Positions 1,331-63,174 of a stretch of DNA of 64,000 nucleotides are shown piece after piece. Numbering within the stretch: position 1 is the first letter of the stretch; each line of letters starts with the position of its first letter. Under the pieces are notes generated by a model. The model was given only the letters and a program-made list of their open reading frames with translations, had not been told where the DNA came from and did not search any database. Position numbers and translations under genes: made by a program. The DNA is taken from assembly GCF_004010195.1 (NCBI RefSeq), contig NC_057719.1, positions 10,314,206-10,378,205 of the forward strand. Direction: 5' to 3'. The stretch comes from Chiloscyllium plagiosum. Taxonomy: Eukaryota.

Positions 1331-2596
1331 TTCATATATGAACACTTAAGAGTAACCTAGCATTCTTCTTGACCTGGGGTTGTTGAAATGGTTGCCTACT
1401 CTATGTCACCATGAGGAATGCGGGACTGAAGATGTTATTTCTTTTTCAAAGTTACTAAATTTCTGGATAAATCTGCTGGCAGCTACACTGCAAGTGCTCC
1501 TGTGTTGAAAACAGGCTCTGTCATCTTTCTGCTGCAGGGATTATTGTGCATCTCTGTGAAGTTAGACCATTGCTCCTAACCTGAGACCAGATTTATCATC
1601 ATCTAAGCTCATTAGTACCATGCCACTTGGTACTAAGCTCAGCATCATTACTGATCTTCAGGAGATCAGGCCTGATATGAAGGTCTGCATTCTAGCCATC
1701 TGAAACCAGATGCTGATATGATCGAAATGGAAGAGACTGTTTCCTCTGAAATAGTAGCAGACAGCATGTACAGATATTGCTGTGGAGCTAACAGTAGCAC
1801 TGTGGTTCAAGCTTAATTCTGCCTTCTTGCAACATCCACACATGCAGATTCTCCTCAGACCCACAATACAGGAATAACAGCAAGAATATTTGCGCATTTC
1901 CTCTTCTTATCCAAGTCACCTATATCACCACTACAACACAGATCTGTTAACTCAACACTGATCACATACTGAACCACAAGACTTCATAGTTGTCACAGTG
2001 CCACACCATCTACTGACTATAGCATCCAAATAATTCTTCAGAGTCATTTTGTAGAACATTAGAATCTTAAATTTAAAGAATTTAAACCATCAATCACACA
2101 TATAATTATTCACTCCTCACAGGCTACAATTGGAATTGATTACCCATTGCTCATTAACCATAAAAAGGGCCTAACATTTTTCAGCTCTATTCTCATTGAT
2201 TTGTGATATACTAGACCCAAAACAATATACAGTGTTAAGACTGCTAAAAGACTACATTATGTACTGCTCAATGACAATCTGACATCACTCTCTACTGCAA
2301 TCTCTCACTTTATTGTATTGATACTGTGATTTTTTTTCCCAATTGTTTTCCAATTGTGCTGCTATGATTACTACTGTTCTGAGCTCATCTCAACTGTTCT
2401 GCTGGAGCTCAGCTCAATTTTTCTACATGTTGCTCTCTGGTCTTATCGTAAAAAATCTTAACCTAATTCCATCTTTCTCAGGACTGGAACTTAAGTCAAT
2501 CAGTTTTCTCTTCAGCCTCAATTTGCTCCACCATCTTTTCCACTCTGATAACATCTAATATTGTGAACCTGTATCATAAGGTCCTTTACCTTAAAC

Positions 2597-2809
2597 TAGG
2601 AGAAAATGAGGGCTCCTGACGCTGGAGATCAGAGTTGAAGAGTGTGGTGCTGGAAAAGCACAGCCAGTCAGGCAGCATCCAAGGAGTAGGAGAGTCAACA
2701 TTTTGAGCATATGCCCTTCATCAGGGATGAGGCGCATGCTCAAAACGTCGATTCTCCTGCTCGGATGCTGCCTGACCAGCTGTGCTTTTCCAGCACCACA
2801 CTCCTCGAC
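2597..2809. mobile_element. Short inverted Penelope-like element (pLTR-derived, family A)
   Basis: Arms gtggtgctggaaaagcacagc...ggcagcatcc / ggatgctgcc...gctgtgcttttccagcaccac; 15-bp direct repeat tcctttaccttaaac at 2582-2596 and 2810-2824. Confidence 0.8.
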
Positions 2810-2917
2810 TCCTTTACCTTAAACACCTGCATGCAGAGTGAGGAGCTGATGTGATGAACAAAGGGATGATCGGAGAATAAAGATAAAGTGACATTGTCCC
2901 ACCAGACCATAAGCCTG

Positions 2918-2937
2918 GTGTGTGTGAGTGTGTGTGA

Positions 2938-2994
<57 letters not shown>

Positions 2995-3002
2995 TGTGTG
3001 TG
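2918..3002. repeat. (TG)n/(AG)n compound microsatellite
   Basis: Directly visible. Confidence 0.95.
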
Positions 3003-3184
3003 TTGAGGATAAGAATGAAAGTCCTTATTGGTGACCCCAACTGGTGCAGGGATTGAATCTCACTCTGTATCACAAGCCAGCCATCAAGCTAACTAACCCC
3101 AGACTTGAGAAAATGTTAAGGAGAACAAGCAAGATTGATAGAGAATTATGAAGCATTATCTTGAAATTGGAGCGGGACCTTTTG

Positions 3185-3668
3185 AGTGGTTGTTACTAGT
3201 CTGTTAAACCAGAGAATCTGGTAATGGTCTGGGGACCATTACCAGATTCAAGTCCCAAAATGGCTGTCAGTAGAATAAAGAGAGTAACATTTGCCACAAT
3301 TCCATTGCCAATTATTGGCAAAAGCCAAACAAAAAACAGAAGCTACTGGAAAAGCTTATCTATTCTGAACAGAGGAAGGGTCACTGGACCCAAAATGATA
3401 ACTCTAGACCTACTGAGCTTTTCCAGTAACTTCTGCTTTTGTTTCTGATTTACAGCATCTGCAGTTCTTTCAGTTGGAAAAACCCAAAAGATTCACTAAT
3501 GTTCTCTAGGGAAGGAAACTGTCAACCTAAATGGTATGGCCGACGTGTGACGCCAAACCCACAACAATGCAGTTGACTCTCAGCTGCCCTCTGGGCAATT
3601 AGGGACTGGCAATAAATTGCTGGCTTAGCCAGAGACGCCCTCATCCTGCAAATGATTAAAAGAAAAAT
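3185..3668 (+). mobile_element. SacSINE1-like SINE interrupted by an older PLE-derived inverted fragment (~3320-3472)
   Basis: SINE head and core (ttcactaatgttctctagggaaggaaac...ctgccctctgggcaattagggactggcaataaattgctggc) split by gaagggtcactggacccaaaa...acctactgagcttttccag. Confidence 0.65.
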
Positions 3669-14329: not shown

Positions 14330-14525
14330 AAAGCAAAATGCTGCAAATGCTGGAAATCTTAAAGAGAGACTGGTGATGCTGAAAATTCTCATCAAGTCTG
14401 GCAGCATCTGTGGAGAGAAATCAGTGTTAATGTTTTGAGTACGATGCTGATGCTGCCAGACCTGCTGAGTATATCCAGCAATTTTGGTTTTTGTTTCAGA
14501 TCCTCAGCATTCGCTGTTCTTTATT
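14330..14525. mobile_element. Older inverted PLE pLTR-derived element
   Basis: gtctggcagcatc ... gatgctgccagac inverted arms with tgctggaaatct / agatcctcagca ends. Confidence 0.6.
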
Positions 14526-16472: not shown

Positions 16473-16957
16473 CTTTGATTTGATTTATTGCTGTCACATG
16501 TACCTAAGTACAATGAAAAGTTTTGTTTTGTGTGCAGTACAGGCAGATCATAACAGCAAGGGCGTATAGATGATAGGATGAGGCGAACGTGAGGACTGCA
16601 GATGCTGGAGGTCAGAGTCAAGGTTAGAATGGTGCTGGAAAAACACAGCCAGTCAGGCAGCAACCGAGGAGCAGGAAAATCGACGTTTCGGGCAAAAGAT
16701 AGGATGAGGCATACGAGGTTACGGCTGCACAGGTGGTGTACAAAAGTAAGGTCAGCTTTAGATTTGAAATGTGAGAGGCCCCTTCAGCAGTCTATTAACA
16801 ATGGAGAAGAAACTGTTCTTGAGCCAGCTGGTGCATCTGTTTAAGCTTTTGTATCCCTGCCTGATTGGAGAGGTTGGAAGAGATTATAACTGGGGTGGGA
16901 GAAGTCTTTGCTGGTGTTGGCTGCTTTTCCATGACAATGAGAAGTATAGATGGATGC
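16473..16957 (-). mobile_element. Rex1/Babar-like LINE 3' fragment
   Basis: tttgatttgatttattgctgtcacatgtacctaagtacaatgaaaagttttg is the reverse complement of the 15345-15400 tail. Confidence 0.75.
16585..16697 (-). mobile_element. Single-arm PLE pLTR fragment (family A) nested in a LINE
   Basis: 13-bp TSD gataggatgaggc at 16572-16584 and 16698-16710. Confidence 0.8.
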
Positions 16958-22294: not shown

Positions 22295-22600
22295 GGCACA
22301 ATACTGTAGATGCTGCAAATAAACTCCAAAAGTGCTGAACAAGCTCAGCAGGTCTGGCAGTATTTGTTGGAGAGAGAAACAGCATTAACCTTTCAAGTTT
22401 GGTATGACTTTTCTTCAGAACAAGTGGAAAGTAATACTCCTGACATGTGCCTTGTAGGTGTTGGGCAGGTTTTGGGGGAGACAGAAAAAGTTACTCACTT
22501 GAAGTGGAGTCATTCCAGACCCGAAATAGTAACTCTGTTTCTCTGTCCTCAGATGCTGCCAGACCAGCTGAATTTCTCCAGCATTCTTCGTATTTGCTCC
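22295..22600. mobile_element. Older inverted PLE pLTR-derived element
   Basis: ctcagcaggtctggcag ... ccgaaatagtaactctgtttctct...gatgctgccagaccagctga. Confidence 0.55.
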
Positions 22601-22759
22601 AGTTCAGACCGTTCTGCTTTAATCACGCTTACATTATCAGTCTCATTCCTGATTGCTTTACCTTCACCCCTTTCTGCGCATGTTATTGTGCTGCACACAA
22701 AGTCAGTTTCTCTAACTGCCACACACTCGCCGCGATCATTTATTTTAAATGTTACAGCT

Positions 22760-23717: not shown

Positions 23718-26009
23718 TTATAGAGAACTGGGAAGATTGCTAAATGGAAGATCTTGCCATCTGGGGAGAATTAAATGATTGTGTCTGTGCAAGGTGCTGG
23801 ATACGAACCCATAAGCTACTAACCCATAGACGAGAGCTATGCCAACTGAGCCGTGGCTAAATATTTATTCAATTTCCAAAGTGTTTGTTTTTTTTGCTGT
23901 TTGTAAATGTTCAACCTCTCTACCATCAGTTCCTGCAATTAAATTGCACTATTTATACTGGAATGGTATGGGTTCAATTTCAGTCTGTCACACATGGTAA
24001 TAGTATATGCTGTTTCTGTTTTAACAATAGCACCAGTTGGTCTGTGAGGGATTAATCTCATGCTGCAAGATAATACCCCTGACACAAACCCTGGAGTGAA
24101 CAATACATCAAAATCAAGATTATAAAAAAAACCCACGTAAATTAAAATTTCATTATAATTAAAAACAGTAATCAAAGTAAGTCTTCCCAAGGGACTAAAT
24201 CAGTTAGCGCATCAGTCTTTCATCTCGAGGATCTGGGATCAAGTTTTGCTTGAACCAATAGGATTGGAATACAAAGGAAAATGAGCAGACCATTCAGCCC
24301 CATGAGTCTGCTACACCATTCAATTCGGTCATGGATAATCTGCACCTTAATTCCATTGGTCCACCTCAGCTCTGTTTCCACCAGGTGAAAGCTGCTGAAA
24401 TTAGGACCATGGTTTCTGAACAGTGCCTTTGTTATTCGGTGACTAGAAGTAAGTTGAGCCAGGGGCTAAGTTGGTAGTGTCGGTAATAGAATATGTTATT
24501 TTAAAGATGAACTCACATTCTAGACAACTCATGATGGATCATTAAACCTTTTCCTACATTGCACTGAAATCCCTGGGACTGAATCACTGATATATTTAAA
24601 TGTAAACTACCGCTTCCTTCTCTTCCCTTATAGCTACAGAATGGCTGGGCACCTGCCTGGAAAGAGTCAATACCAGATGGTCTGTTTCCCACATGATAGG
24701 ACTCACTGACCTCCTCATCATACTCCTCACTCATATCTTGCAATATCAAAAACGCTTCACTCTTGATCCTGACTAAAAAGAAATATTAAATTTCAGTTTT
24801 AAAATTTCCATTTAACCCTAGCTCAGCTGCTTTTAGTTGAAGATGACTCCCTCAATACTTTGTGTGTGAAGTGTGCTGCTTAACATCATGCTGAACGACC
24901 TCACTTTCATTTTAAGGTTATGACTTGTCACTCTGGACCTTCCCCACCTGGGGAAACATTTATATTTCTTTCTCCATTTACATTACAAGTGTTTTTTTTA
25001 ACTACCTCATACTCCAACAGGTCAAGTGAGCTTAGACATTGTTGACCAGGTTTGCACACCCAGTCTGAAGCTCTTCCGGGCATAAGGATGGGTGCCATAA
25101 GAAATTGGGGTGTCACACTCTGAATGAAGGTGGCAGGAGTAACTATAATTCAGAGACTAAACTAATGTAAAAGTATCTTGCATCATTCCACGTCCATGAC
25201 TAATTTAACCGCTTACCCCATGTTATTAAGACTGCATTGCATGCAACTGCTATCCCTTCCTTTCTATCATTTATTGTAAATCTAGATATTTGATCATTTT
25301 GCTGTTTCAGCAGGGGTCGCTTTATTTGAAACACGTGAATAGATATTTTCAGAGTATGATAATAAAAAATAAATATAAGTTCTAGCATTAAAGGTACCAA
25401 GGAATGTTCGACACTAGGAGATCTTGTTAAGTAAAAATGGTTGTCGAAAATGATACATCTCACAGTTTGAGCATACAACTTGGGAAACATCAGATGAAAA
25501 TATCTTGTGAACTCTTCACAACCACACGTATTATTTGTACTGTGAAAACTGACAGTAGATCATTCAGAATTCCCTCCGGTTACCCTCAACTGCACTATTG
25601 ATATTTGCCACATCATGGGAAAAAGTACTGAATTGACATTTTCCCTCAAACAATTCCATGGATTCAGTCTGTAACTTCAACTATGATTCATAACATATAT
25701 ACAGGTTTCTTACTGAAGTAATCTTGAATATGGTGGTCAATGTAAACAATTTTGGAACTCATTTTAAAGAGGTGCTTTTAAACATCATTTCTTTAATTAT
25801 CATGCTTTGAAAATATCTAAACACAGGCAGCATACACTAGCTCATGATGGACTGGCTCCCATTTTGTTCCCCCAAGATTAGAGACTGTGCTTTGAAATGA
25901 TTTTCTTTTGACACTAAAGTGCTTCAGCAGGAACTGGTTTTTGGTTCATTTTTGTGCCAGAGACTGACACAAAATTGAGCTCTCAGACCCATGCAGGTCA
26001 TGGACCTCC

Positions 26010-26432
26010 TCCATTGTCAAACCCTCCCCACCCACGCCTGAAGGAAGAACACCTCATCTTCTGTCTTGGGACCCTGCAACCACATGAGATCAATGTGGAT
26101 TTCACCAGTTTCCCCATTTTCCGTCCCCCCACCTCATCCCATCCCAATCTCCCACTTGGCACCGCCCTCCTGAACATTCCTACCTGTCCATCTTTCTTCC
26201 CACATATCTGCTCTACCCTCCACTCTGACCTATCACTTTCACCCCCACCTCCATCTACTTATCACATTTCAGCTACCTCCCCTCCAGCCCCACCTCCTCC
26301 CATTTATCTATCAACCGCCTTGGCCCACAAGTCTCATTCCTGATTAAGGGCTTATGGCCGAAACGTCGGCTCTTCGGCTCCTCAGTTGCTGCCTGACTGG
26401 CTGTGCTTTTCCAGCACCACACTCTTCAACTC
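26010..26432 (+). mobile_element. Penelope-like element 3' end (GIY-YIG C-terminus, pyrimidine-rich UTR, pLTR), family A
   Basis: RLKEEHLIFCLGTLQPHEINVDFTSF matches the recalled PLE C-terminal motif R.LEE.HLIFRLG.LQP.G.N.DF; followed by cctgattaagggcttatggccgaaacgtc and the family-A arm. Confidence 0.8.
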
Positions 26433-28099: not shown

Positions 28100-28345
28100 T
28101 ACAAAGACTTGCAGATGCTGACGATCTGAAACAAACAAAACGCAGAAGTTTAAAACCGAAAGAACTGCAGATGCTGGAAATCTGAAACAGAAATTGCTGG
28201 AAAAGCTCAGCAGCTCTGCCAGCATCAAATCGGAGTTAACGGCTTAAGTCCAGTGATCCATCTTCAGTTTATGACTCTTCTTCACTGGACTTGAAACATT
28301 ACCTCTGTTTCTCTCACCACAGATGCTGCCAGGTCTGTTGAGTTC
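28100..28345. mobile_element. Older inverted PLE pLTR-derived element
   Basis: gaactgcagatgctggaaatctgaaac...ctcagcag / cactggacttgaaacatt...gatgctgccaggtctgttgag. Confidence 0.55.
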
Positions 28346-29635: not shown

Positions 29636-30071
29636 TCTGTTCAGGAATATATTAGTTATTGTTACAGTTCTCTCAAGTTTATTCTTACTGATCTTTTAGC
29701 AAATATTATATGCTGAATTTATAGAGCTACAAATAGTAACAGCAATTGATGATTAGGTTAAATGTTGTAGCCTAACAATTAACAGCCCTTCATGGAAGGC
29801 AACACCTTCCTACTGACAACTATTAAGAATACAAAAAAAAACAAATATATGTATTCTGTACTGTAATAATACAACCACTGCAGGTTCTTGACTAAGACAC
29901 AGATAGCCACAGAAACACAAGCATTATCATATATGACATTAGTCAAAAAAATACATCAGCAAGCAGCTGGATGCAACAGTTGGTTAATATTTTAATTCCC
30001 ACACACATTTATGGACAGAGCGAGTTAGACAAAAGTGAGACCTGATCTAAATCCAACTCAATTTATAAGTA

Positions 30072-30802
30072 CGTTACCATGACTAGGTAACATCATCAGT
30101 GAGAGTCTCTGGTGAAGTGCTGATGATATGTCCTGCCTCTCTATTTATAGGTCTTGCTTTCTTCAGGTGGGTGATGTCATTTACGTTGCCTTTTTTCAAA
30201 GGAAGACAGATGGGATGTAAATCGATGCATTTGTTGATGGAGTTTTGGTTAGAAATCCATGCCTCTAAGAATTCTCGTGCCTGTCTTTGTTTTGCCTGTC
30301 CTAGGATGTGTGTGTTGTCCCAGTCAAAGTGGTGTCCTTCTTTGTCTGTATGTATAGAAACTAGTGATAGTGGGTCATGTCTTTTGGTCGCTCGTTGGTG
30401 TGTGAATGACACGACCCACTACCACTGGTTTCTATACATACAGACAAAGAAGGATACCACTTTTATTGGGACAACATACACATCCAGGGATAGGCGAAAC
30501 AAAGACAAGCACGAGAATTCTCAGAGGCATGGCATTCTAACCAAAACTCCATCAATAAACACATCGATTTAGATCCCATCTATCTTCCCTTGAAAAAAAG
30601 AACCATAAATGACATCACCCACCTGAAGAAACCAAGGCCTATAAGTAGAGAGGCAGGACATACCACCAGCACTTCACCAGAGACTCTCACTGATGATGTT
30701 ACTTAGTCATGGTGATGAAACATCGGAAAACAAACCTTCCAGCTCAGCGAGCTAGCTTACATGCTTATCATCAACCTGAGCCACAAACCTTCTTGAGAAC
30801 TG
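30072..30802. mobile_element. Penelope-like element (family B, Poseidon-like), two 3' fragments in inverted orientation
   Basis: Minus arm encodes HQRATKRHDPLSLVSIHTDKEGHHFDWDNTHILGQAKQRQAREFLEAW..NSINK (PLE GIY-YIG C-terminus); plus arm from ~30405 repeats it; flanking ccaactcaat at 30053-30062 and 30803-30812. Confidence 0.88.
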
Positions 30803-31152: not shown

Positions 31153-31353
31153 AGGAGCAAATTACTGGAATCTGCACTGAAAACAAAAGATGCTGGAGAT
31201 CACAACAGGTCAGGCAGCATCCCTGGAGAGAGAGCAAGATAATGTTTTGAATCTAGATGACTCTTCATGTTCTGATGAAGAGTCATCTAGACTCGAAACG
31301 TTAGCTTGCTGTCTCTCCATGGATGCGGCCTGACTCGCTGTGATTTTGACATG
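31153..31353. mobile_element. Short inverted PLE element (family A variant)
   Basis: 12-bp TSD aatgaactaggt at 31141-31152 and 31354-31365; arms caggtcaggcagcatcc / ggatgcggcctgac. Confidence 0.8.
31267..31307 (+). ncRNA. Minimal type-I hammerhead ribozyme motif (PLE-associated)
   Basis: auguu-CUGAUGA-A-GAGUC(AUCUA)GACUC-GAAAC-GUU-agcuu: invariant core, perfect 5-bp stem II, palindromic AACGUU stem III, partial stem I. Confidence 0.65.
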
Positions 31354-33576
31354 AATGAACTAGGTGAGCTTTCCAACATATTTTGTCTGGGTCACCAGTA
31401 CTAAAACTGGTTTACGATTCAAGATTTACTAATTGAATTTAAATCCGACCAGCTTCTGTGGTGGGATCTGAGCTCAAGTCCCCAGAATGTGCTTCTGGAT
31501 GAGGAGCCCAATAATATTGACCATCAAGCCAATATCAAGGGGGAACGCTCCTGAAACAAGGACTGAGGCATACTTCTGCAACAAGAGATGGGATTTTACC
31601 TTGATTATTCACTTGCTGTCTTCCGGTCCTACCCCAGGTGCACAAAGTATGATCCCTCATTTCCACAGATTCCAAATCCACCTTGCAATGTGGTGGCTGC
31701 GATCGGTGAGTTGGAATAGAGGCCACTTGAAAATTCACACTTCACTAGGGCACTGTGATGCCCCCCACACAAGACCCAGCTGGAGAAATCAACTGAAAGA
31801 GGATCCAGTTCTCCTGGCTTCACAAATTTCCTCCAAACTGTTTCATGAGTAAGCACTGGGAATGCACTTAAGCAAATAATATTCGCTCTCTTTGAGTCAT
31901 GCATAGTAATCGCTGAACCAGATATGAGAAACCAGTCAAGGAAAGAACGAAATAAAGGCCATGAGTGCTTCTAAGATCTTTCAATGATTTCTTGCTGTGA
32001 TGAACATCATTGTTTCAAAAGCTCAGAGCAAGTCCAGCTGCAATTTCTAGCTGACAAGTTTGCTAAGTAGTGTTGCATTTAAATGTGTCCTATTGTCCTG
32101 GCTCCAATCGTTACTCTGACAGCCATGTTATAGTTGGGAAGGATATTGATTACCTTCAGAAATCTGATTTCAATCAGGGATAGGCCTTCCTTTGGTACTG
32201 CTGGGATTCCACATAACGATCTGGCATTGGCTTATGCTTCAAAACAGATATTATGAATGTTATCATGAAACTGATATCACTTGATAAGCGTGGAGACTGG
32301 ACTCAATAAAGGTGCTGCTTTCAATTAATTTCAATTTTAGATTCTAATGTACTGTACTCAATTGCTTCATTTTGCACACTGAAGCAGGGGATCCTTCTAA
32401 TTTGACAATACCATAGGTATTGAATGTTTAAGGGTCTCATGAAGCGTACTTTGTTACAAGAATTGAGAAAAATTTAACTTAAAAACACTGACCGCAGTGA
32501 AGACCTGGTATTTTGGGTTCTCTTTCCCCTAGATCTCCTGGATTTATATTGTATTACAAATTGAAGTAGAGGTGGCAATAAACACAGAAAGCTTGAGAAA
32601 CGCAGCAGGCAGAACTAGTTGGAAGAAGTGGACTGGACTTGAAACATTAACTCTGTTTCTCTCTACAAGGATGCTGCCACACCTGTCTGGTTTCTCCAGC
32701 ATTCTCTATGTTTGTTTTGGGTTTCCAGGATCTGCAGCATTTTATCTTTATTGAACTAGAGGTAGTGCTGGAAGAGAAAGCAGTGGAAGAGTCTGAGAGA
32801 ACTTTAATGGGCCCAGTAGTTTTCAATTGGCCTGTAAGATAATGTTAAGCTATCTGGGAAAACAGTTGGGCCTACAGACAATGAACTGCCAACACACCTA
32901 CCTCAGAAGATAACTACAGAAGGCATTCAACACATCCTGGTTTGCAGATCCAAAAATATCTGAAAGTCCCTCCTACCCCAGGAGGGTAGGAACCACTGCT
33001 GGATTTGCAAGTCCTGTTTTCAGTCGCAAATGTAGAATCTTACCCTCTTGGCCTCACTAATGCTTAAATTATATGAAGCAATTTTGTGCAATTATCAATG
33101 TCTTATTCATAACTTATATACGATCACCTCTGAAATGTGTCCTTCAAATATTATAAAACCTATTTAATCTATCTTGGATCATAGTATGAGACAAATAACT
33201 TTCGGGTTCAGCCTTATGACCTTCTCTGTGGTGTCACATTGAAACATAGAAACAGGAGCAGGAGAAAGGCCATTCGACCCTTCGACCCTGCTCTGCCTTT
33301 CCAGTGATTAAGGCTGATCATTCAACTCAGTGCTCTGCTCCCACTTTCTCTGCGTATCTTTGGAGCCAAAGTACAAATATCACTCCTGTGCCTCAGTGAG
33401 AAGGTAGAAAGTCAATTCCCAAGGCATCACCCGAGAAGCAGAGTTTAATCATTGTACCTTGGCTCATAATTTACTAATTTTGGCAAAATACATTTCATCA
33501 GATTGTTCTTTGGTGTTCTGCATTGGTCAGACATGTTGAGTGCCAAGTCAGGCAAGACTCCTAAGTCATAGATGAT

Positions 33577-41808: not shown

Positions 41809-42770
41809 TGTTACAAAATTGAAAGAGTGTATTGTCACTTTAAGACTGAAAGCGCTTTTCTGAGCTGAGAGATTATGATAGAACATGTGTCTGTATCTAG
41901 CTGACAGGTATAGAGAGAATGCTGAGAATTGGTAACGGTCAGCTTGGGGTTGTGTTTTAATGTTAAGGGAAATGGATTTGAATTTAACAAATTAATTTAA
42001 ATTATGCCCAGGATACCAAAACCCAATTGAATTTGAAGTTATTGTGTTGACAACATCAGACCAATGAGAGGGTATGAAGTTGGGAATTTAAAAAGGAAGT
42101 TGAAAATGTGTTGCTGAAAAAGCACAGCAGGTCAGGCAGCATCCAAGGAAAGGAGAATCGATGTTTCGGGCATGAGCCCTTCTTCAGGATGATGGGCTCA
42201 TGCCCAAAACGTCGATTCTCCTACTCCTTGGATGCTGCCTGACCTGCTGCGCTTTTCCAGAAACACATTTTCAGCTCTGATCTCCTGCATCTGCAGTCCT
42301 TACTTTCTCCATTAAAAAAGGAAGGGCATGTTGAAAATTAGAGAGCTAGCTGCCCATTGAATTAGAGAGCACACATCACCTGAAAGGGCTTGCAAAAAGA
42401 AATCTCCCAGAAGACATTTTCTATCAAAGGTACCTTTTCCCGTAAAAGCAGTAAAAAGTAAGAAGATTTGGAAGACTGGCTGGAAGACAACACAAGAGAC
42501 TTTATGGACTTTGAGGGATTAAGTTGATTCAATGTTTAATAACTGCGTTATTGACACAGCATTTTAGAGCGGGGTCAGATAGAGTGATTAATTATGAAAA
42601 AGAGGGCTCGGACTTGTTAATAGCTTTGTTTAGTGTTCACTGTTAAACAGTGGAAATTGGGGTTTTCCTTCATTCACTCAATCACCCTTTTAGCAAATTA
42701 CGATGCGAAGTGAGCTTTTCTGGGGTGTTGGTTTTAATTAGCAGAAAGGTTCAACCACTGCACTGTAACA
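41809..42770 (+). mobile_element. Probable solo LTR inserted in a SacSINE1-like SINE (41690-41808 and 42771-42938)
   Basis: Perfect 7-bp terminal IR TGTTACA (41809-15) / TGTAACA (42764-70); CCAAT at 42061 and TATA-like ttaaaaag; SINE resumes after it; TSD degenerate (atct/accc). Confidence 0.6.
42100..42310. mobile_element. Short inverted PLE element (family A) nested in the LTR
   Basis: Arms cagcaggtcaggcagcatccaagg / ccttggatgctgcctgacctgctg; TSD aaaaaggaag at 42090-42099 and 42315-42324. Confidence 0.8.
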
Positions 42771-43339: not shown

Positions 43340-44075
43340 ACAGAGTACTAAAGCAAAGAAATTATGACAAATCTGAACTGAGAACTACATCCAATTTTGG
43401 TCCACTTTGGAAATGATGTGAGGATGTAGAAAAGGATCATGAAAATGACTCCAGCAAAGAAGGGCTTAATTTATAGGGAGAGGTTAACAAATTTGGGGTT
43501 CTTCTCAGAAGAGATTTGATACAGGTTTTACAAGCTGTGAAGGGTGTAGAAAGAACAGAGAGAGAGAAAAACAGTCCCCAGTGGGGGAAGAATGGAGAAC
43601 CAGAGATCACAGATTTCAGGTTACTGATGAAAGAACCAGTGGTGACACAAGGTGAACCTTTTCAAATGTAGAGAGAGGTTAGAATTTAGAATGGGCAAAA
43701 ATGAGTACTGCAGATGCTAGAGATTAGAGCCGAGAGTAAGGTGCTGGAAAAGCACAGCAGGTCAGGCATCATCCGAGGAGCTTGAATATCAACATTTCGG
43801 GCAAAAGCCCTTCATCAGGCTTTTTTGATTTTCCTGCTCCTCGGATGCTGCCTGACCTGCTGTGCATTTCCAGCACTACACTTTTGGCTAGAATTTAGAA
43901 TGCACTGCCTTAGAGTGAAGTGGAGGCAGATTGAATCGACAGGGAATTGGATTACTGGTGGTAGGCAGAAACTTTGCAGGAAATGGTGGGGGAGCAGGTT
44001 AAGCTGAGCTGCTCCGGCAAAGAGTCTGCATGGACACAGACTGAATGACCTCCTTCAGTTCTGTAACCATTCTAT
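43340..44075 (+). mobile_element. Degraded CR1 3' fragment interrupted by a PLE insertion
   Basis: gagatttgatacaggtttacaag...gaaccagagatcacagatttcagg...tagaatgcactgcct. Confidence 0.55.
43694..43888. mobile_element. Short inverted PLE element (family A)
   Basis: 14-bp TSD tagaatttagaatg at 43680-43693 and 43889-43902. Confidence 0.82.
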
Positions 44076-44324: not shown

Positions 44325-44880
44325 GTGCTGCTATTGCCAGACTATTAATCTAGAGATCCAGATAATATTCTGGGGAACAAAACAGATGTTACTGCAAAAT
44401 CTCAGCAGATCTGGTTGCATCTATGGAGGGAAGTTAGAGTTAATATTTCAGATCCAGTGACCCTTCTTCAGAAAGTTCTGAAGAAGGGTCACTGGATCTG
44501 AAACACTAACTCTGTTCTCTCCACAGATACTGCTAGACCTGCCGAGATTTTCTGGCTATTATTGCTTTTGTTTCATATTTTAATATCCACGGTTCTCTTT
44601 TTATTTTCTCTAGTGGTCTGGGGATCTGGGTTTGAATCCTGCTACAGCAGATGGTGGAATTTGAATTCAGTAAAAATCCAAACTTAAAAGTCCAATGATG
44701 ACCATGAAACCATTGTCGATTGTCATTAATGTCCTTTAGGGAAGGAAACTCACTTAACCGATCTGGCCTACTTCTGACTCTGGACCCACATAATGTTAAT
44801 TGCCCTCTGGGCAATTAGGGATAGGCAATGAATGCTGGCCTAGCCTGTGATCCCCACACCCTATAAATGCATTTAAAAAA
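44325..44880 (+). mobile_element. SacSINE1-like SINE interrupted by an inverted PLE element (44377-44616)
   Basis: Direct repeat tctgggga at 44369-44376 and 44617-44624; SINE tail gccctctgggcaattagggataggcaatgaatgctggcc. Confidence 0.7.
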
Positions 44881-45621
44881 ACCCAGAGCAGTTATTATCA
44901 TTGTTAAGTTGTCCAATAAGTAATTTCAATGGCTTATTTTCATTTTGTTGGGGTCTCTGCCAATCGAGAGAGCACTTTCTGTTTGGATCTTATTTCTTTC
45001 AGTCTGACACAATCTCTTGGTTTGTATAGCACAGCTGTAAGTTTTCTCAGTACATTACTTTTTGAAGCCTGTCATAGCATCTCCACTTTGAAGTAATTTA
45101 TTACTTTGCCCTTCCTCCTGTCTGATGACCAATTCCCAAGCTAATACTCATCTTAAGCAATTGCATAATATTAAATAATGAATAACATCTTTTCCTTTAG
45201 CGCAAAGAGTTCATCTGCTTTATTCTCCATAGTCACTTCTCTTTCACAAGCTGCAGGAGTGTAACGGTTATGTTATTGAACACAGAATCCAGTGGCTTGG
45301 CCTACTGATCCAGAGAAGCAAGCTCAAATTCTATCAGAGCATTTAACTGTCGATCATCATGAACTGATGCATTTCCCAATTGAACACAATAAAGTCCCTC
45401 AAGCCTACACTGCCATTCAACAAGATCATGCTGATCATTGGAAGTTTTAACTCCTCTTTCATGCCAGCTCATTCTAGCCCTCAGACCTGAGAGAGTTCAA
45501 AAATCTATCTACTACCACTTTGCTACTTTGAGTGATTGAGCCTCCATGACTATCTCTCCACAAATGCTGCCTGACCTGCTGCGATTTCCAGCATTTTCTT
45601 GTTTTCAGTTCAGCTTTCAGC

Positions 45622-45925
45622 AGGCGGCATGGTGGCACAGTGGTTAGCACTGCTGCCTCACAGCACCAGGGCCCCAGGTTCAATTCCAGCCTCGGCCAAC
45701 TGTCTGTGTAGAGTTTGCACATTCTCCCTGTGTCTGCAGGGGCTTGCTCTTGTCTCCTCCCACAGTCCAAAGATGTGTGGGTCAGGTGAATTGGCCATGC
45801 TAAATTGTCCATAGTGCTAGGTGCATTAGTCAGAGGGAAATGAGTCTGGGTGGATTACTCTTCGGAGGGTCGGTGTGGACTTGTTGGGCAGAAGGGCCTG
45901 TTTCCACACTGTAGGGAATCTAATC
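45622..45925 (+). mobile_element. HE1-type V-SINE
   Basis: ggcggcatggtggcacagtggttagcactgctgcctcacagcaccaggg...tttccacactgtagggaatctaatct. Confidence 0.9.
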
Positions 45926-47716: not shown

Positions 47717-47859
47717 TGATGTAGAGGAACCAGTGTTGGATTGGGGTGGACAAAGTTTAAAATCACACAACACCAGGTTATAATCACAACCACCTGACGA
47801 AGGACCAGTGCTTCCAAATAAACCTGTTTGACTATAACCTGGTGTTGTGTTATTTTTTA
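47717..47859. mobile_element. Short inverted PLE-like element (family C)
   Basis: cacaacaccaggttata / tataacctggtgttgtg arms; central cctgacgaagga; TSD acaggt(a/g)acaagca at 47703-47716 and 47860-47873. Confidence 0.7.
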
Positions 47860-48944: not shown

Positions 48945-49857
48945 TAATTCCAATTTTCGACCAGTCATTTCGGTGATTGATACAGTTACAATGCACAGCA
49001 TATTTCCTTGTTACTAATATGCTGCTACCTGTTTGACAGAAAATCTACATTATAACCACCATAAAACAGCAGAACGCCCATCTGTGTACATCCCTCATTA
49101 CAGAATTTATAGGCACCTTTGGGGACAGCTGGTACACTTGCAAACATTCTCTTTTTTTTAAACGAAAAAGGAATTTTAACAACCAAACATTAAACATGCT
49201 ATTCTGATGTAGATCACAGACATCCGCAGATGAGACTAGAATTACCCAGAGATCAAGGATGTAATCACAAAGCATTTGACATTTAATCTTGAACTTTTAA
49301 AGGTGTCATCTGAACCATTCAGGTTGCACCATTATGGTATTCTGTTCAAAAGCACAATTAAATTTTGCACAGCAAGTACTTTGTGCTGATTCATTTCACT
49401 TTCTTTCGAAGCTGAATATCAATGCAACTTCATCTTTTTCAAAATCAGCTGTGTTGAAACCATGTTTCTTTATCAGTAGTGTCCTTATTTTGCAGTTTGT
49501 GAAATAAGGATGCTTGCTACTGAACTGGGAGAAAGCTGCTCAAAAAGGGCTGGTGCTCTCTATGACATCCATTCACCATTCCCAACAAACATTGAGGTGA
49601 AAGGTTACAGGGAGAAGGTAGGAAAACATATCAGCTAGGATCGAATGGTGGAGCAGATTCAATGGGCTGAATGGTCTAATTCTGCTCCTAAATCTTACAG
49701 TCTTCTGGCCAGGCAGCATCTGAGGAGCAGGAGAATCGGGCCTAAGCCCTTTCTCTAGTCTTCTGGTCAGGTCAAGGGGAATTCCTTGCTCTCTCTGCCA
49801 CACTAATGTCGATGAGCAGAATAGGCAGCCAATCATACTGACGTCTTCTTATAGATA

Positions 49858-49952
49858 AGGGCCTGAAGAAGGGCTTATGCCCGAAACGTCGATTCTCCTG
49901 TTCCTTGGATGCTGCCTGACCTGCTGCGCTTTTCCAGCAACACATTTTCAGC
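49858..49952 (+). mobile_element. 95-bp single-arm PLE insertion with intact hammerhead core
   Basis: Perfect 14-bp TSD tcttcttatagata (49844-57, 49953-66); CTGAAGA-A-GGGC(TTAT)GCCC-GAAAC-GTC at 49863-49890. Confidence 0.85.
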
Positions 49953-50284
49953 TCTTCTTATAGATAGCCAGGCATTAAAAGCATTTCAATAATCCATCAC
50001 TTTTGATTTAAATTTACAGTTCGCAAAATAAACAGTTATGTTTGGTTTAAGAAAGAAGTTATACTAAAGATTAAAAACTTTCCTAAAATATAGAATGTTT
50101 TTTTAAAAACATTGATTTTTTTTTATTGAGATATTTAGAAGTATAAACACAATCCTTTCAATTACTTAGCAGCAATTACGAAGTTAGTATGCAATTAAAA
50201 ACCTAGTTTACCTGATTAGTTTAAAGATATTGGGGGGTCGCGGTGGCAGGGAAGAACTCAGCACAAAAGTGGAAGTTCTTATCA

Positions 50285-50388
50285 GATTCTGAAGAAGGGT
50301 CACTGGACTCGAAATGTTAACTCTGCTTTCACTCCACAGCTGCTGCCAGACCTGCAGAGATTTTGCAGCAATTTCTGGTTTTGTTTCT
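50285..50388 (+). mobile_element. Single-arm PLE pLTR fragment
   Basis: ctgaagaagggtcactggactcgaaatgttaactctg...gctgccagacctgc. Confidence 0.6.
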
Positions 50389-50502
50389 CCTCAGCCTATT
50401 TCACTTGAATGTGCAGGGAGGTGGGGGGAAAAAAGGCCTCAACAATGCAACCTCTGTTGAAGCAGAGCATCACTAACAATAGGTTTCACCTTTCCATGTT
50501 AT

Positions 50503-51543: not shown

Positions 51544-51549
51544 TGAGAA

Positions 51550-51737
51550 TAAAGGTCAGAAGTCACATGACACCAGGTTATAGTTCAACAGGTTTATTGG
51601 AAACCACAAGCTTTCAGAAGGCAAAGGAGCAGTGCACCAAAAGCTTGTGGTTTACAATAAACCTGTTGAACTATAACCTGGTGTCATGTGACTTCTGACC
51701 ATGTCCACTCCAGGCCAACACTGGCACCTCCACATTC
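51550..51737. mobile_element. Short inverted PLE-like element (family C)
   Basis: ggtcagaagtcacatgacaccaggttatagttcaacaggtttattg / caataaacctgttgaactataacctggtgtcatgtgacttctgacc perfect inverted arms. Confidence 0.75.
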
Positions 51738-54499: not shown

Positions 54500-54713
54500 C
54501 AATAAAACAAAGAACTGAGGATGCTGGAAATCTGGAACAAAAACAGAAATTGCTGGTGAAACTCAGCAGGCCTGGCATCATCTATGGGGAGAAAGCGGAG
54601 TTGAAAATTTTGAACTTGGTGACTCTTCACCAGACTCTCCTCAAAATGTTAACGCTGCTTTGTTCCCACGGATGCGGCCAGGCCTGCTGAGTTCCACCAG
54701 CAATTTCTGTTTA
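54500..54713. mobile_element. Inverted PLE pLTR-derived element
   Basis: aaacagaaattgctggtgaaactcagcaggcctggc / gccaggcctgctgagttccaccagcaatttctgttt. Confidence 0.7.
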
Positions 54714-55094
54714 AATGTTACGCATAACTGGCTGCTTCCAAGAATCCACTAGGGACCCATTTGGGATGTCCGAATCCTCAACACATAAATGTGTCAAAAT
54801 GATGACCAATGATATTTGTGCCACAACATGCCATTTCATCTTGTTTCCCTTTGATTTGTTCAGTCCTGTACCAACATCATTGGCCTCCAATTGAGACTAT
54901 ACACACAGGGTCACTGGACCCACAACATTAACATTGATTTCTCTTCACAGATGCTTCCAGACCTGCTGAGCTTTTCCAGCAATCTGTTTTCCTTTCTGAT
55001 TTCCAGCATCTGCAGTTCTTATGATTTTTATGTACTCACACCATGTTGAGAGCATTATGTCAGAATGTGGCTGACTTCATCAATAGAAATAGAA

Positions 55095-58127: not shown

Positions 58128-58146
58128 CTCTCCAGCAGATGGCAAT
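58128..58146 (+). promoter_or_regulatory. Candidate CTCF site
   Basis: CCAGCAGATGGCA (58132-58144) fits the CCASYAGRKGGCR core, in unique AT-rich sequence. Confidence 0.3.
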
Positions 58147-59748: not shown

Positions 59749-60159
59749 AGTATGTAGCAACAGCTTGGCAATATGTGACTGTGAAAGCCTACAATTTGCT
59801 GGCAGATTTGTGGCACTCTATATCATTAGCTTTGTGAAAACAATGGCTCACTCTATTGGTCTCCCAATGTTTTAATGAATTATTGCATGTTCGTAACCCC
59901 CGAACGTCTCTTTGACTTAACTTCATTTCCCAAGAATCACATCAACCACTCAACTATTCAGTGTCTGAACTGAGGACAATCAAAGACATTGTTGGCTATG
60001 GTGGGGATATCACATCACCCACTAATGCAGGGACTGCCAGTGTATGCTCCTTCCAACAGTGGCACTTTCCTGTGTTCACACAGCCCTTCACATGTGGAGT
60101 TTGGCAGCAAGTCCTTCAGTCTCCCTGGTTTCTGAAGTCAATCTAGTCTGAAATGATTT

Positions 60160-60510
60160 TTTTTTATTATTCATTGATGGGATGAGTACATCATTGACCA
60201 GCATTTATTGCCCATCCTTAAATGCCCAGAGGGCAGTTGAAGGTCGACCACATTTCTGTCTGGAGTCAGTTGTAGGCCAGACCAGTTAAGGACGGCAGTT
60301 TCCTTCCCTGAATGACAGTAGTGAGCCAGATGGGTTTTCCCCCACACTTGCCAATGGATTCAGGGTCATCATTCGCCTCATAATTCCAATTTTGTTTTAG
60401 TGATTTCAAATTCAATTGGCCATGGCAGGATTTGAACCCACGTCTCCAGGACATCACCAATTCCTCTGGATTAATTGTCGAGTGGAAATACCGCTAGGCC
60501 ATCATCTCCC
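60160..60510 (-). mobile_element. SacSINE1-like SINE
   Basis: ccagcatttattgcccatcctt...ccagagggcagttgaag...gatttgaaccc. Confidence 0.7.
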
Positions 60511-60754
60511 TTATCTGTGGGTCCTTCATGGCCCACAAAGCAACACGCATCATCTCCAGCATCATGATGAAGCCACTGTACTGTCAACCATCTTGGCTAG
60601 TCTGAAGGAAGAACAGCTCAGCTCATGCAATAATCTTGTTGCTTTTATCTCACTTGCATGGCCCTAAATATTTCTTTTAGCTTCACCTGCTGGGGATGAG
60701 TTAGTCTGATTTTAGCGTGATTTTCTGAAATTCCTTTGGGTTTTCATAAGAAAC

Positions 60755-61010
60755 AAAGTCAGGTGAGAGAGGGGTTTTGAAGAGAACGTTTTACCCGGAG
60801 AGTGGTGGGAATCTGAAATGCACTGCCTGGGTGGATAAGAGGCCTGAAGCTTCTTGAAGCAGGAAACCACACAATTTTTTAAACGTATGCGGATGAGCAC
60901 TTGTCAATGTAATGAGCCAAGTGCTGGAAGGTGGGACTAGTGTAGATACGTCAGCACAGTGTAGGTGGATCAAAGGGCCTCTTCTATGCCATGTGACTTT
61001 ATGACTCTAA
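60755..61010 (+). mobile_element. CR1 3' fragment
   Basis: tttttacccggagagtggtgggaatctgaaatgcactgcctgg...tttatgactcta. Confidence 0.65.
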
Positions 61011-61903
61011 TGCCATGCTTGTCATGCCACTGTTGGCTTTTGCAAAGGGGCTCCAGGCAATGGAGAAGCCCCGAAATAACTGAAAATGATCTTGGACTGT
61101 GCCTTGTGGTCACATCCTTCACCGCACACTTTAAGCAGAGGATTCTCAATGTCTTCATTGCTCATTTCATATGGAGCCATTAAACAGACCACAGAGAATT
61201 AAGTCCGGCATCTATCAGTGCAAGTACCATTTTAACAATATGATAACTGTTAAAGACTAATTACCGTCTCCTGCCATAAAGTAAACAAGCGATTTGGGAA
61301 ATAAATGCTTGTCCAGCCAGCAATGTCACATTCCATAAATGAATTAAGGAAAGGCCCCATTCCCTCAGGTTGTGAATTACATTGGAATTTGAGAAATGTC
61401 ACTTTATTTCTTTCTCTCAAATTCATTTCAGCCTCTTTCCTCTCCCTCTTTGTGATCTTTCTTGTTCTTTTTAAATCCCTGTTTCTGCACATGATTTGTT
61501 TTTAAATATGGTAAAAACAATGACTGCAGATGCTGGAAACCAGATTCTGGATCAGTGGTGCTGCGAAGAGCACAGCAATTCAGGCAGTTAAATATGCCCA
61601 CTCTTCCATCTTTGATCTTCCTCTGATTATTTTTCTCGTTCATTCGTGACTGTTGGGCTCAGCACTTATCGTCCGTCCAGAGTTGTCCTTGAGAAGGTGG
61701 TGGTGAGCTGCCTTCTTGAACCGCTGCTGTTCACCTGCTGTGGCTTGACTCCCAATGCCATTAGGAGAGAATTTCATTCATTTCGCTGTCAAAGGAGAGA
61801 CATGCTCTGCCCATTTTCCACCAACGTTCCAGGTGCCCAATTGCCCTCCATGTGTCGCTGTGCATAACTAATCTGGCATGATAGTGGACAACATTCTCCT
61901 AAA

Positions 61904-62133
61904 TGGAGGTGGGTACTGCAGATACTGGAGATTAGAGTCAAAAATTAGAGTGGTGCTAGAAAAGCACAGCAGGTCAGGCAGCATCTGAGGAACAGGAAGA
62001 TTGATGTTTCGGGCAAAAGCCCTTCATCAGCTCATTCCTGATGAAGGGCTTTTGCCTGAAACATTGATCCTCCTGCTCCTCGGATGCTGCTTGACCTGCT
62101 GTGCTTTTCCAGCACCACTCTAATCTTGACAAC
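61904..62133. mobile_element. Short inverted PLE element (family A) with two hammerhead cores
   Basis: tttcgggcaaaagcccttcatcag ctcattc ctgatgaagggcttttgcctgaaa; degenerate TSD cattctcctaaa / cattcttctgaa. Confidence 0.8.
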
Positions 62134-63174
62134 CATTCTTCTGAAGCCTAAACATTCACCAGCAAGTTTAATTAATCCAGCAGATCTTGTGATACATGCT
62201 TCCAACAAAACATAGCCAAATAAATTATATTTGGTTCATTTTGTTCTGGCCTCTGCTTATTTTTCAGACACAATAACATCAGCAAGTTACTTATCTAGTT
62301 CCATTATCCAGTAACGTAACAGTGAACTGTGATTCTATTGTTTTCTCGGTGTAATCAGAGATGGAATGGAGTGCAGAAATAATGCCTTATCCTTATGAAA
62401 ATGGAAACACTGCATGAGAAAGCCAATGCATTTTTAGCTGTACCTTCCAACGAGATGAACTTCACAGAATCAGAATCTTCACAGTGCAGGAGGCCATTCA
62501 GCCCAACGTAGTGCTATCCTTATGTTCTTTCCTGTAAGCCTGCATAGTGCTTAAATTCAAATGTTCATCTAGTGCCCTCTTTAATGTCTTGATTAACCCT
62601 TCCTGCTCCCAATCTTCCTGGCAATGCATTCCAGATCCAAACCACTTACTGTGTCAAAATGTTTATTCCCACATCATACTCACTTCCTTTGTAAACCATC
62701 TTAAACAAGACTGATGAGTGATGGGTATAGATGGCCATGTGGAGGACTGAAAGATTATGGTCACTATAATTCCCATGCTCATTCCCTTCAGTATTATTGG
62801 ATGCATCTCCAAAGTTTCAAAGACTCCAAATGAAATGACTCTGAGGCAGTCTTAAGCAGATCCTAGATGACAGGTGAAGTCACAATCCGAGTGAGGATGC
62901 TCATTTGCATTAAATAGCCACTCTCCCTTAAAATAAAATGCAAGTGGTGGTGACTTTAACTTTGCCTCAGATGTGTCATCATAAAAGACAAATATAGACT
63001 CCCTGCCAACAGTTATGTGGTGAACATTGACTATACCAGATGGTGAGCTGCCTTCCTGAGCCACTGCAGTCCTTGGAATGAATCATCCACAGTCGTGCTA
63101 GGAAAGAACTGAGCAACAATGAAGGTAAATTAATACAGTTACAAGTCAGGATTGTGCGTAGCTTGGATGGAAAC

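What the first reader, a model, noticed from the sequence alone, without database searches (positions are those of the whole stretch)
2582..62145. Population of 95-250 bp ribozyme-bearing Penelope-derived mini-elements whose breakpoints cluster at the hammerhead core
Seen: at least 15 short elements of two sequence families (A and C), most of them head-to-head inverted repeats. Each arm reads outward from a CTGA(T/A/C)GA..GAAAC motif. The inversion centre (~2725, ~31268, ~42190, 44474, ~62034) or the truncation point of single-arm copies (16697, 49858, ~50285) falls within a few nt of, or inside, that motif. Long TSDs of 12-15 bp (2582, 16572, 31141, 43680, 47703, 49844) point to target-primed insertion rather than cut-and-paste MITEs. 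Established: PLE pseudo-LTRs carry minimal hammerhead ribozymes, and PLE copies are often inverted and 5'-truncated. Inference: either the ribozyme fold marks where reverse transcription stalls or switches template, or these are a non-autonomous, retrozyme-like small-RNA family in sharks mobilised by PLE enzymes.
Basis: partly seen in the sequence, partly recalled or inferred. Interest (0 to 1): 0.7.

Follow-up and report, generated by a model that had tools for sequence, protein, structure and literature searches.

The report
Hammerhead-headed Penelope stubs in shark DNA
The many short, often hairpin-shaped insertions are real stub copies of the end of Penelope-like jumping genes, laid down in a pattern already known for this class; the one unexplained detail is that most stubs stop at the front edge of the ribozyme motif rather than where the ribozyme cuts.

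Summary
The window has 23 loci of four Penelope-like (PLE) end families: 14 head-to-head palindromes and 9 single arms. In families A and C, 16 of 20 loci start within -10..+12 nt of the CUGA core, none at -33..-11 (p 1.5e-5) and 3 further downstream. Two long copies carry GIY-YIG coding remnants, which ties families A and D to PLEs; D inverts 285 nt upstream, a counter-example. Only 1 of 31 arms starts at the hammerhead cut site. No unit is in tandem, all 14 junctions differ, and 4 of 4 family A palindromes pair one tailed with one tail-less arm, matching the two internal RT start sites described for PLEs. Best reading: each stub is built anew at insertion from cDNAs that run off an RNA 5' end just upstream of the hammerhead. 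It is not a retrozyme or MITE; a ribozyme-fold stall is disfavoured. The RNA start is inferred, not shown. The scan found this same pattern before in other windows of this genome.

The parts
2597..2809 (.). Family A palindrome; left arm tailed and reaching -7 (to -9 with 3-nt microhomology), right arm tail-less from about +9; TSD 2582-2596 / 2810-2824
3327..3470 (.). Family C decayed palindrome; arms from +69 and -2; 15-nt flanking repeat with 2 mismatches
14341..14522 (.). Family C palindrome, arms from +18 and +50 (outside the cluster); no significant TSD
16585..16697 (-). Family A single tailed arm from +11; TSD 16572-16584 / 16698-16710; sits inside another repeat
22303..22602 (.). Family C palindrome, arms from -3 and +1, with a 78-nt spacer of unknown origin; 14-nt TSD with 1 mismatch
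25985..26432 (+). Family A long copy: GIY-YIG C-terminal remnant (26035-26142), pyrimidine-rich 3' region, hammerhead core at 26340, tail-less end; 6-nt flanking repeat only
26330..26341 (+). Only native view of the sequence upstream of the family A core: AG at -10/-9 after a pyrimidine tract, initiator-like TCATTCC with A at -4, and a short inverted repeat straddling CUGA
   Evidence: sequence, composition; roles are inference
28159..28345 (.). Family C palindrome, arms from 0 and +11, 14-nt filler
30063..30802 (.). Family D 740-bp palindrome with GIY-YIG coding remnant; inversion centre 285 nt upstream of the core (30690); right arm tailed; 10-bp exact TSD 30053-30062 / 30803-30812; TATA-like box about 50 nt upstream of the core. 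Counter-example to the clustering
31153..31349 (.). Family C palindrome, arms from about +3..+5 and -3; TSD 31137-31152 / 31350-31365
32619..32752 (+). Family C single tailed arm from -4 (-2 if the 7-nt flanking repeat is the TSD)
42100..42310 (.). Family A palindrome; left arm tail-less, right arm tailed; junction within -6..+8; 14-nt TSD with 1 mismatch
43694..43888 (.). Family A palindrome; left arm tailed from -1, right arm tail-less from +28 (the only arm that starts at the cut site), 7-nt filler; 14-bp exact TSD
44377..44616 (.). Family C palindrome, arms from -2 and -4; 8-bp TSD; interrupts another repeat whose unbroken copy lies at 47310-47167 (projected gap 0)
45550..45622 (+). Family C single arm from +37 (outside the cluster); no TSD found
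47717..47859 (.). Family B palindrome; right arm holds the whole core (C3 at 47794), left arm from about +35; 14-nt TSD with 1 mismatch
49714..49756 (-). Family A 43-bp stub from +6 ending near +58; 15-nt TSD with 1 mismatch
49858..49952 (+). Family A single tail-less arm from -1 with 4-nt filler; 14-bp exact TSD 49844-49857 / 49953-49966
50285..50390 (+). Family C single arm from -2; no significant TSD
51552..51735 (.). Family B palindrome; both arms align from +14 by script, right arm to about +6 by eye
54505..54712 (.). Family C palindrome, arms from -1 (tailed) and +19
54907..55022 (+). Family C single tailed arm from +7
61511..61587 (-). Family A-like single tailed arm from +49 (outside the cluster); 9-bp exact TSD
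61903..62130 (.). Family A palindrome; left arm tailed from 0, right arm tail-less from -7; TSD degenerate, seen by eye only, not significant in the script

Best explanation
These are insertion products of endonuclease-bearing Penelope-like retrotransposons, each built anew at its site. The PLE protein nicks both target strands 8-16 bp apart and primes cDNA at one of two fixed internal sites of its RNA, about 90 and about 125 nt downstream of the hammerhead core. Most templates end a few nucleotides upstream of CUGA, most likely because the RNA begins there (a transcript start in the pseudo-LTR, or a processed 5' end), so a cDNA primed in that leader copy runs off after only 90-135 nt, like strong-stop DNA. 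One cDNA gives a single arm; two, one from each strand, are joined head to head with small losses, microhomology or filler and give a palindrome with one tailed and one tail-less arm. cDNA primed in the downstream pseudo-LTR gives the rarer long copies (26340, 30063). Shown here: PLE origin of A and D, TSDs, two 3' ends, asymmetry, unique junctions, clustering and its position. From the literature: two internal start sites, nicking of both strands. Inferred: twin priming and the RNA 5' end.
For: PLE identity: 26035-26142 matches the C terminus of RT/GIY-YIG-type proteins P0010/P0011 (58-64%, E 1e-7 to 7e-7) and 30278-30511 matches P0003, a shark protein with RVT_1 and a weak GIY-YIG hit (68-83%). 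TSDs of 9-16 nt in 11 of 23 loci vs 0.8% of 506 null pairs; insertion 44377-44616 interrupts a host repeat with projected gap 0. Family A 3' ends are bimodal, 41-45 nt (6 arms) or 77-80 nt (5 arms) after a fixed anchor, 11 of 13 arms measured; 4 of 4 A palindromes have one of each; 5 of 7 C palindromes differ by 18 nt or more at their outer ends. This fits PMC11167929 (parts 1-2 of the text read): two adjacent internal RT starts make the 30-40 bp tail, both strands are cleaved and extended, hammerhead cleavage is dispensable in vitro and no RNA-seq ends were found at the cut site. 5' ends: 16 of 20 A+C loci in -10..+12 vs 3 in +13..+65 (p 1.8e-6) and 0 in -33..-11 (p 1.5e-5): a sharp upstream edge with a downstream tail, as a template end plus small losses would give. 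6 of 9 single-arm loci also cluster, so it is not an inversion artefact. All 14 junctions differ. Partner arm ranks 1-2 of 10 in 3 of 4 A palindromes. RNA reads laid on the long copy fall from 143 to 24 to 10 across the core (run X21). Promoter elements in pseudo-LTRs are described (PMC3846280, PMC2377424, passages).
Against: No RNA 5' end was observed: one search lists no place where many molecules begin or end (a polyA single-cell library, 2 in 100 of it read). The initiator-like A is at -4 but two A arms reach -7, and the upstream TATA-like match in family A is poor; in family D the TATA-like box points to a start about 20 nt further upstream. DNA contig depth shows no step at the core (63-68 thousand over 26299-26361); its step is at 26383, where this diverged copy starts to align. 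Partner arms rank 3 or better of 16 in only 3 of 6 C palindromes and 9 of 10 for 43680; arm likeness could also come from gene conversion. Families C and B have no long copy here, so their autonomous partner is unseen. One window, 20 loci in the test; no genome was held. PMC3846280 (Discussion read) favours self-priming at junction palindromes instead.
Confidence: 0.6

Rival explanations
1. Non-autonomous master copies (solo pseudo-LTR RNAs of about 130 nt headed by the hammerhead) are transcribed and mobilised in trans by PLE enzymes; all daughters inherit the master's 5' end, and the inverted arm is still added at each insertion.
For: Stubs outnumber long copies (8 of 9 A loci, 11 of 11 C, 2 of 2 B); the end module is about 8-10 times deeper than the best upstream peak in DNA contigs and about 16 times in RNA reads (with cross-mapping of family C likely). 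pLTRs suffice in cis for mobilisation in trans (PMC3846280, passages); non-autonomous PLEs are known in Chlamydomonas (PMC8557442, passages).
Against: Three families show the same limit relative to the core, which asks for a shared mechanism; family A has a long copy that is colinear with the stubs; stubs belong to several sequence subfamilies; no discrete small RNA seen (weak test).
Confidence: 0.2
2. The template runs on upstream, but RT stops or the cDNA folds back or switches template at this spot because of local structure: a hairpin from +1 to +28, a small inverted repeat straddling CUGA, or a protein-clamped hammerhead.
For: The consensus fold of 7 A arms pairs the core (+1..+5) with the cut-site strand (+24..+28) on top of stem II, so a helix foot lies at the cluster. 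Junction 2582 has 3-nt and 42098 2-nt microhomology. PMC3846280 reports palindromes at inverted junctions; PMC11167929 finds the hammerhead protein-assisted.
Against: RT meets a helix at its 3' foot; only 3 of 31 arms start at +18..+28. None of the 18 predicted pairs has a two-sided change. Single arms are not unusually stable. Either arm can be the longer one at the junction (tailed longer in 2582 and 43680, tail-less longer in 61896 and 31141), which a simple fold-back does not predict.
Confidence: 0.15
3. Retrozyme-type cycle: hammerhead self-cleavage and circularisation make a small RNA that is copied into the genome.
For: A minimal type I hammerhead is present; retrozymes derive from PLE pLTRs and occur in one cartilaginous fish sampled (bioRxiv 10.64898/2026.07.22.740005, part 1 and passages).
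Against: No hammerhead unit in tandem (0 of 9 rows); 1 of 31 arms starts at the cut site; no permuted monomers seen; motif is the minimal, not the canonical, type.
Confidence: 0.03
4. DNA-transposon MITEs with long terminal inverted repeats.
For: 14 loci are palindromic and TSD-flanked.
Against: TSDs vary from 8 to 16 bp; outer ends are unequal by about 35 nt; 9 single-arm copies exist, 4 with significant TSDs; the arms continue into PLE endonuclease sequence in two loci.
Confidence: 0.02

Closest known systems
Insertion units of endonuclease-positive Penelope-like elements: pseudo-LTR, adjacent inverted 5'-truncated copy, 30-40 bp tail at one end, 8-10 bp TSD (PMC3846280, PMC8557442; passages and one section read)
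   Same: Head-to-head inversion, tail on one arm only, TSD around the whole unit, microhomology or palindromes at junctions, GIY-YIG remnants in long copies.
   Different: Here 21 of 23 loci are the end module alone, and their 5' ends pile up at the front of the hammerhead; the passages read describe variable 5' truncation and do not report such a pile-up.
PAc (Poseidon of Anolis carolinensis) in vitro mechanism (PMC11167929; parts 1-2 of 4 read, supplements searched with no hit, their figures not seen)
   Same: Two internal RT start sites about a tail length apart downstream of the hammerhead; both strands nicked and extended; cut site not used as an RNA end.
   Different: That study maps 3' (start) sites, not 5' limits; in PAc the ORF starts at stem II, whereas the family A ATG in the core meets a stop after 17 codons in the copies read.
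Minimal hammerheads of metazoan PLEs (PMC4209133; parts 1-2 of 4 read)
   Same: Core CUGANGA, extra base before stem II, palindromic 2-bp stem III, mostly single motifs in truncated copies, some pairs on opposite strands 100-700 bp apart.
   Different: Opposite-strand pairs here abut (0-80 nt); stem I is often lost because the copy starts at the core; family A stem I is weak (4 positions, one mismatch).
Non-LTR retrozymes (PMC7229834 passages; bioRxiv 10.64898/2026.07.22.740005 part 1 and passages)
   Same: Short, non-coding, PLE-related, type I hammerhead, TSD longer than 4 bp.
   Different: Retrozymes are head-to-tail tandem repeats with canonical active hammerheads and circular RNAs; these are single or inverted and do not start at the cut site.
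Strong-stop cDNA of LTR retroelements and twin priming of LINE-1 (both recalled, not from a call)
   Same: A short cDNA that runs off the RNA 5' end; two primers on one target giving an inversion.
   Different: No tRNA primer or strand transfer; both cDNAs copy the same stretch, giving a palindrome rather than two different parts of the element.

Membership tests
EN+ Penelope-like element | RT plus C-terminal GIY-YIG endonuclease upstream of the pseudo-LTR | tested here: met
   Families A and D: endonuclease C-terminal remnants match RT/GIY-YIG proteins. No whole ORF in the window.
EN+ Penelope-like element | Same link for families B and C | tested here: inconclusive
   No long copy (0 of 11 C, 0 of 2 B); C shares its downstream module with A and both carry the motif.
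EN+ Penelope-like element | Minimal hammerhead in the pseudo-LTR | tested here: met
   12 descriptor hits vs 0.71 expected; stem II differs between families yet pairs. Rfam does not detect it.
EN+ Penelope-like element | 30-40 bp tail at one end only; inverted truncated copy; variable TSD | tested here: met
   4 of 4 A palindromes, 5 of 7 C palindromes; 11 of 23 significant TSDs.
EN+ Penelope-like element | Clade (Neptune for A, Penelope/Poseidon for D) | not tested
   P0010 has a cysteine-rich linker before GIY-YIG and P0003 lacks it, which fits the description in PMC8557442; no tree was built.
Minimal hammerhead ribozyme | Self-cleavage (as dimer or protein-assisted) | not testable with these tools
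   Needs an in vitro assay; most copies are decayed.
Non-LTR retrozyme | Head-to-tail tandem units each with a hammerhead | tested here: not met
   0 of 9 tandem rows; no head-to-tail pair among 23 loci.
Non-LTR retrozyme | Unit ends at the hammerhead cut site | tested here: not met
   1 of 31 A+C arms.
Non-LTR retrozyme | Abundant monomer-length linear or circular RNA | tested here: inconclusive
   RNA reads in both orientations, no pile-up of ends; library unsuited to small or circular RNA.
Non-autonomous SINE-like PLE derivative | Subfamilies with identical junctions or stub-only lineages | tested here: inconclusive
   All 14 junctions differ in this window, which rules against a mobile palindrome but not against a single-arm master; no genome held.
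MITE / DNA transposon | Equal terminal inverted repeats and fixed-length TSD | tested here: not met
   Outer ends differ by about 35 nt; TSD 8-16 bp.

The most novel reading that the evidence does not exclude
Shark PLEs shed strong-stop-like cDNAs from the leader copy of their pseudo-LTR as their main product, twin-primed from two internal sites, so that the very many stubs form a genomic record of the element's RNA 5' end, just ahead of a hammerhead that is not used to cut; in families with no long copy this leader may have become a self-standing, hammerhead-headed small RNA lineage.
Probability: 0.35. Interest if true: 0.62.

Novelty: new variant of a known kind. Interest (0 to 1): 0.38.

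Why it matters
The PLE transposition cycle, including how tandem and inverted ends arise and what the hammerhead does, is still open in the papers read. A sharp 5' limit that ignores the ribozyme cut site, together with one tailed and one tail-less arm per palindrome, makes a twin-priming, run-off model directly testable in a genome with a very large number of copies (the 23 loci cover 7.2% of this window). It also means shark transcripts carry many near-perfect 150-250 nt hairpins that can pass for microRNA precursors or MITEs. The architecture itself is known, and the scan has met it repeatedly in this genome, so the gain is mechanistic detail, not a new class.

Tried and rejected
Whole genome: none held, so no genome-wide breakpoint plot. 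Collection scans: 0 matches in viral contigs; 81 loci in metagenome contigs were chance word matches, 1 of 81 aligning over 35 nt or more. Rfam at E<=10: 11 hits, microRNA and snoRNA models on the palindromes or chance, none at gathering score, no hammerhead. Pfam on 5 window ORFs: only one RT hit, in an unrelated LINE fragment; none for the 37-aa family A remnant; the word-index search with that remnant found nothing, the exhaustive search gave 6 hits of which 3 are the endonuclease tail and at least 1 is a spurious repeat protein. Sequencing runs: no RNA holder listed by index. Read laying: loose ends pile at 26377 and 26387 because this copy is diverged there, so they do not give breakpoints; contig depths are not copy numbers; the empty site in the related organism was not seen among the 15 joints shown (89 more not shown). 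The 78-nt spacer of locus 22303 is not a continuation of the arms (47% of 1000 shuffles score as well). Junction fillers of 5 nt or more are not found in the family A upstream body (0 of 5), so no sign of a spliced-on upstream exon; the splice-acceptor idea (AG at -10/-9; intron ending at helix I in Drosophila virilis, PMC4209133) is left open, and three family C arms run past the matching AG. Interrupted-host test gave adjacent flanks for 2 of 7 loci (gap 0 and gap 13). Literature: 7 searches showed no paper on shark PLE stubs or on 5' ends clustering at the hammerhead; subscription papers and Repbase are not searched, PMC5785218 was not held, supplementary figures of PMC11167929 and supplements of the bioRxiv preprint could not be seen and may bear on this.

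Full report
What was checked. I catalogued them by self-comparison and family queries, aligned the arms, measured 5' and 3' ends against references, tested TSDs and clustering, the motif, tandem arrangement, folds and protein remnants, and laid four public runs on the one long family A copy. No genome was held. Offsets below count from C3 of CUGANGA as 0.

Inventory. There are 23 loci in four families: A 9, C 11, B 2, D 1; 14 head-to-head palindromes and 9 single arms; 21 are 43-300 bp, two are 448 and 740 bp; together 7.2% of the window. The hammerhead descriptor hits 12 times against 0.71 in shuffles; Rfam does not see it, as expected for the minimal form without a closed stem III described in PMC4209133 (parts 1-2 read).

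They are PLE ends. The long family A copy has a remnant at 26035-26142 that matches the C terminus of proteins with a GIY-YIG domain and RT pieces (P0010, P0011). The family D palindrome has, in both arms, a remnant that matches P0003, a shark protein with RVT_1 and a weak GIY-YIG hit. Families C and B have no long copy in the window; C shares its downstream module with A, so their PLE status is by likeness only.

They are target-primed insertions. Family D has a further 10-bp exact TSD outside the script's search range, and locus 44377 has an 8-bp TSD and splits a host repeat whose unbroken copy aligns with gap 0 (2 of 7 loci tested gave adjacent flanks, the other with gap 13). TSD length varies from 8 to 16 bp, which is not a DNA-transposon pattern.

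The 3' ends are the known PLE signature. Of 13 family A arms, 11 could be measured from a fixed anchor: 6 end 41-45 nt after it and 5 end 77-80 nt after it; each of the 4 A palindromes has one of each. In family C, 5 of 7 palindromes differ by 18 nt or more at their outer ends. PMC8557442 and PMC3846280 (passages) describe a 30-40 bp tail at one end of PLE insertions, and PMC11167929 (parts 1-2 read) shows that it lies between two internal RT start sites, that both target strands are cleaved and extended, and that hammerhead cleavage is not needed in vitro.

The 5' clustering is real, with exceptions. Taking the furthest-5' arm of each locus, 16 of 20 A and C loci start at -10..+12, 3 at +18..+49, one about 355 nt upstream and none at -33..-11 (p 1.8e-6 against the downstream range, 1.5e-5 against the upstream range). 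By arm, 23 of 31 fall in the window, after resolving by eye two junctions where the aligner let the arms overlap. Six of 9 single-arm loci cluster as well. The family C reference reaches only -4, so longer C copies would be seen only through shared upstream sequence or TSD position; none of 7 upstream flanks resemble each other. Family B fits loosely (one locus holds the whole core; the other aligns from +14 by script and about +6 by eye). Family D does not: its inversion lies 285 nt upstream, in coding sequence.

Where the cluster lies matters. The cut site is at +28 (A) or +30 (C); 1 of 31 arms starts there. A stall at the fold should fall at its 3' foot; 3 of 31 arms start at +18..+28. Seven single arms fold no better than shuffles. 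All 14 junctions differ in offsets or filler, and no hammerhead unit is in tandem. So cleavage, a retrozyme cycle and a mobile palindrome are not supported. The distribution has a sharp upstream edge (-7 to -9 in A, -4 in C) and a downstream tail, which is what run-off at a template end followed by small losses would give.

Read data. In the raw RNA run X21, depth summed over both orientations falls from 143 (26341-26361) to 24 (26320-26340) to 10 (26299-26319); the module peaks near 960 and the best upstream peak is 59. This agrees with about one long copy per ten, as in the window (1 of 9), but the reference copy is diverged, family C may cross-map, and reads in both orientations (400 vs 560) look like read-through. 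No place with many starts or ends was listed. In the DNA contigs there is no step at the core; the step is at 26383, where this copy begins to align well, with peaks of 4.6-5.5 million against 0.56-0.57 million upstream and 17.8 in the flank. These show great abundance and an excess of the end module, not breakpoints.

Mechanism. Best reading (0.6): PLE RNA starts just upstream of the hammerhead in the leader pseudo-LTR; RT primes at one of two sites about 90 or 125 nt in and runs off; one cDNA gives a single stub, two give a palindrome. The sequence upstream of the A core has an initiator-like heptamer with its A at -4 (consensus recalled), but two arms reach -7 and the TATA-like match is poor; an AG at -10/-9 after a pyrimidine tract allows a splice acceptor, with precedent in Drosophila virilis (PMC4209133, PMC2377424 passages), but no shared upstream exon shows in the fillers. 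Rivals: non-autonomous single-arm masters (0.2), strongest for C and B; structure-driven stop or fold-back (0.15), helped by a consensus hairpin from +1 to +28 without any two-sided change in 18 pairs and by the self-priming proposal in PMC3846280; retrozyme (0.03); MITE (0.02). Arm kinship is only moderate support: the partner ranks 1-2 of 10 in 3 of 4 A palindromes and 3 or better of 16 in 3 of 6 C palindromes.

Novelty. The architecture is the known PLE insertion unit. The pile-up of 5' ends at the front of the hammerhead was not found in 7 literature searches, which do not cover subscription journals, Repbase or supplementary figures. The scan has noted the same pattern in several other windows of this genome; those notes are unchecked leads and not independent support, and my reading was written down before seeing them. 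Verdict: new variant of a known kind, interest 0.38.

Noticed in passing
window 30063-30802: The left arm of the family D palindrome lacks about 45 nt that include GAAA and the cut site but appears to resume just before its outer end, so an internal deletion removed half of one hammerhead; both arms keep a TATA-like box about 50 nt upstream of the core.
   Followed up: partly
window 49699-49771: A 43-bp family A stub with its own 15-nt TSD ends near +58, far short of both usual 3' ends; it lies 100 nt from a separate TSD-bounded stub in the opposite orientation.
   Followed up: partly
window 22422-22499: 78-nt spacer of unknown origin between two family C arms; a 23-nt match at 40517-40539 is its only other hit in the window.
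   Followed up: partly
window 28268-28281: The 14-nt filler looks like a second small inverted piece of a family C core, suggesting more than one template switch.
   Followed up: no
window 49858-49955 and 26340-26432: In two family A subfamilies the core can pair (7 bp) with the sequence at the tail-less 3' end; not recovered in the consensus fold of 7 arms.
   Followed up: partly
window 41320-41347 (- strand): One hammerhead-descriptor hit outside the 23 loci; may be chance (0.71 expected) or a fifth family.
   Followed up: no
window 34686-35279, 50672-51583, 10656-11078, 22973-23308: Fragments of other LINE-type retroelements; one has an RVT_1 hit. Many 150-400 bp interspersed repeats of other families fill the window.
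   Followed up: no
window 2648-2795, 42133-42240, 44447-44500, 61986-62083: The palindromes score against microRNA-precursor models below gathering level, a likely source of false miRNA or MITE calls in sharks.
   Followed up: no
proteins P0001, P0002: Annotated shark gene isoforms end in PLE endonuclease-derived sequence, either exonised repeats or annotation errors.
   Followed up: no
window 20648-21247 and 50935-51038: Assembly gaps (runs of N).
   Followed up: no
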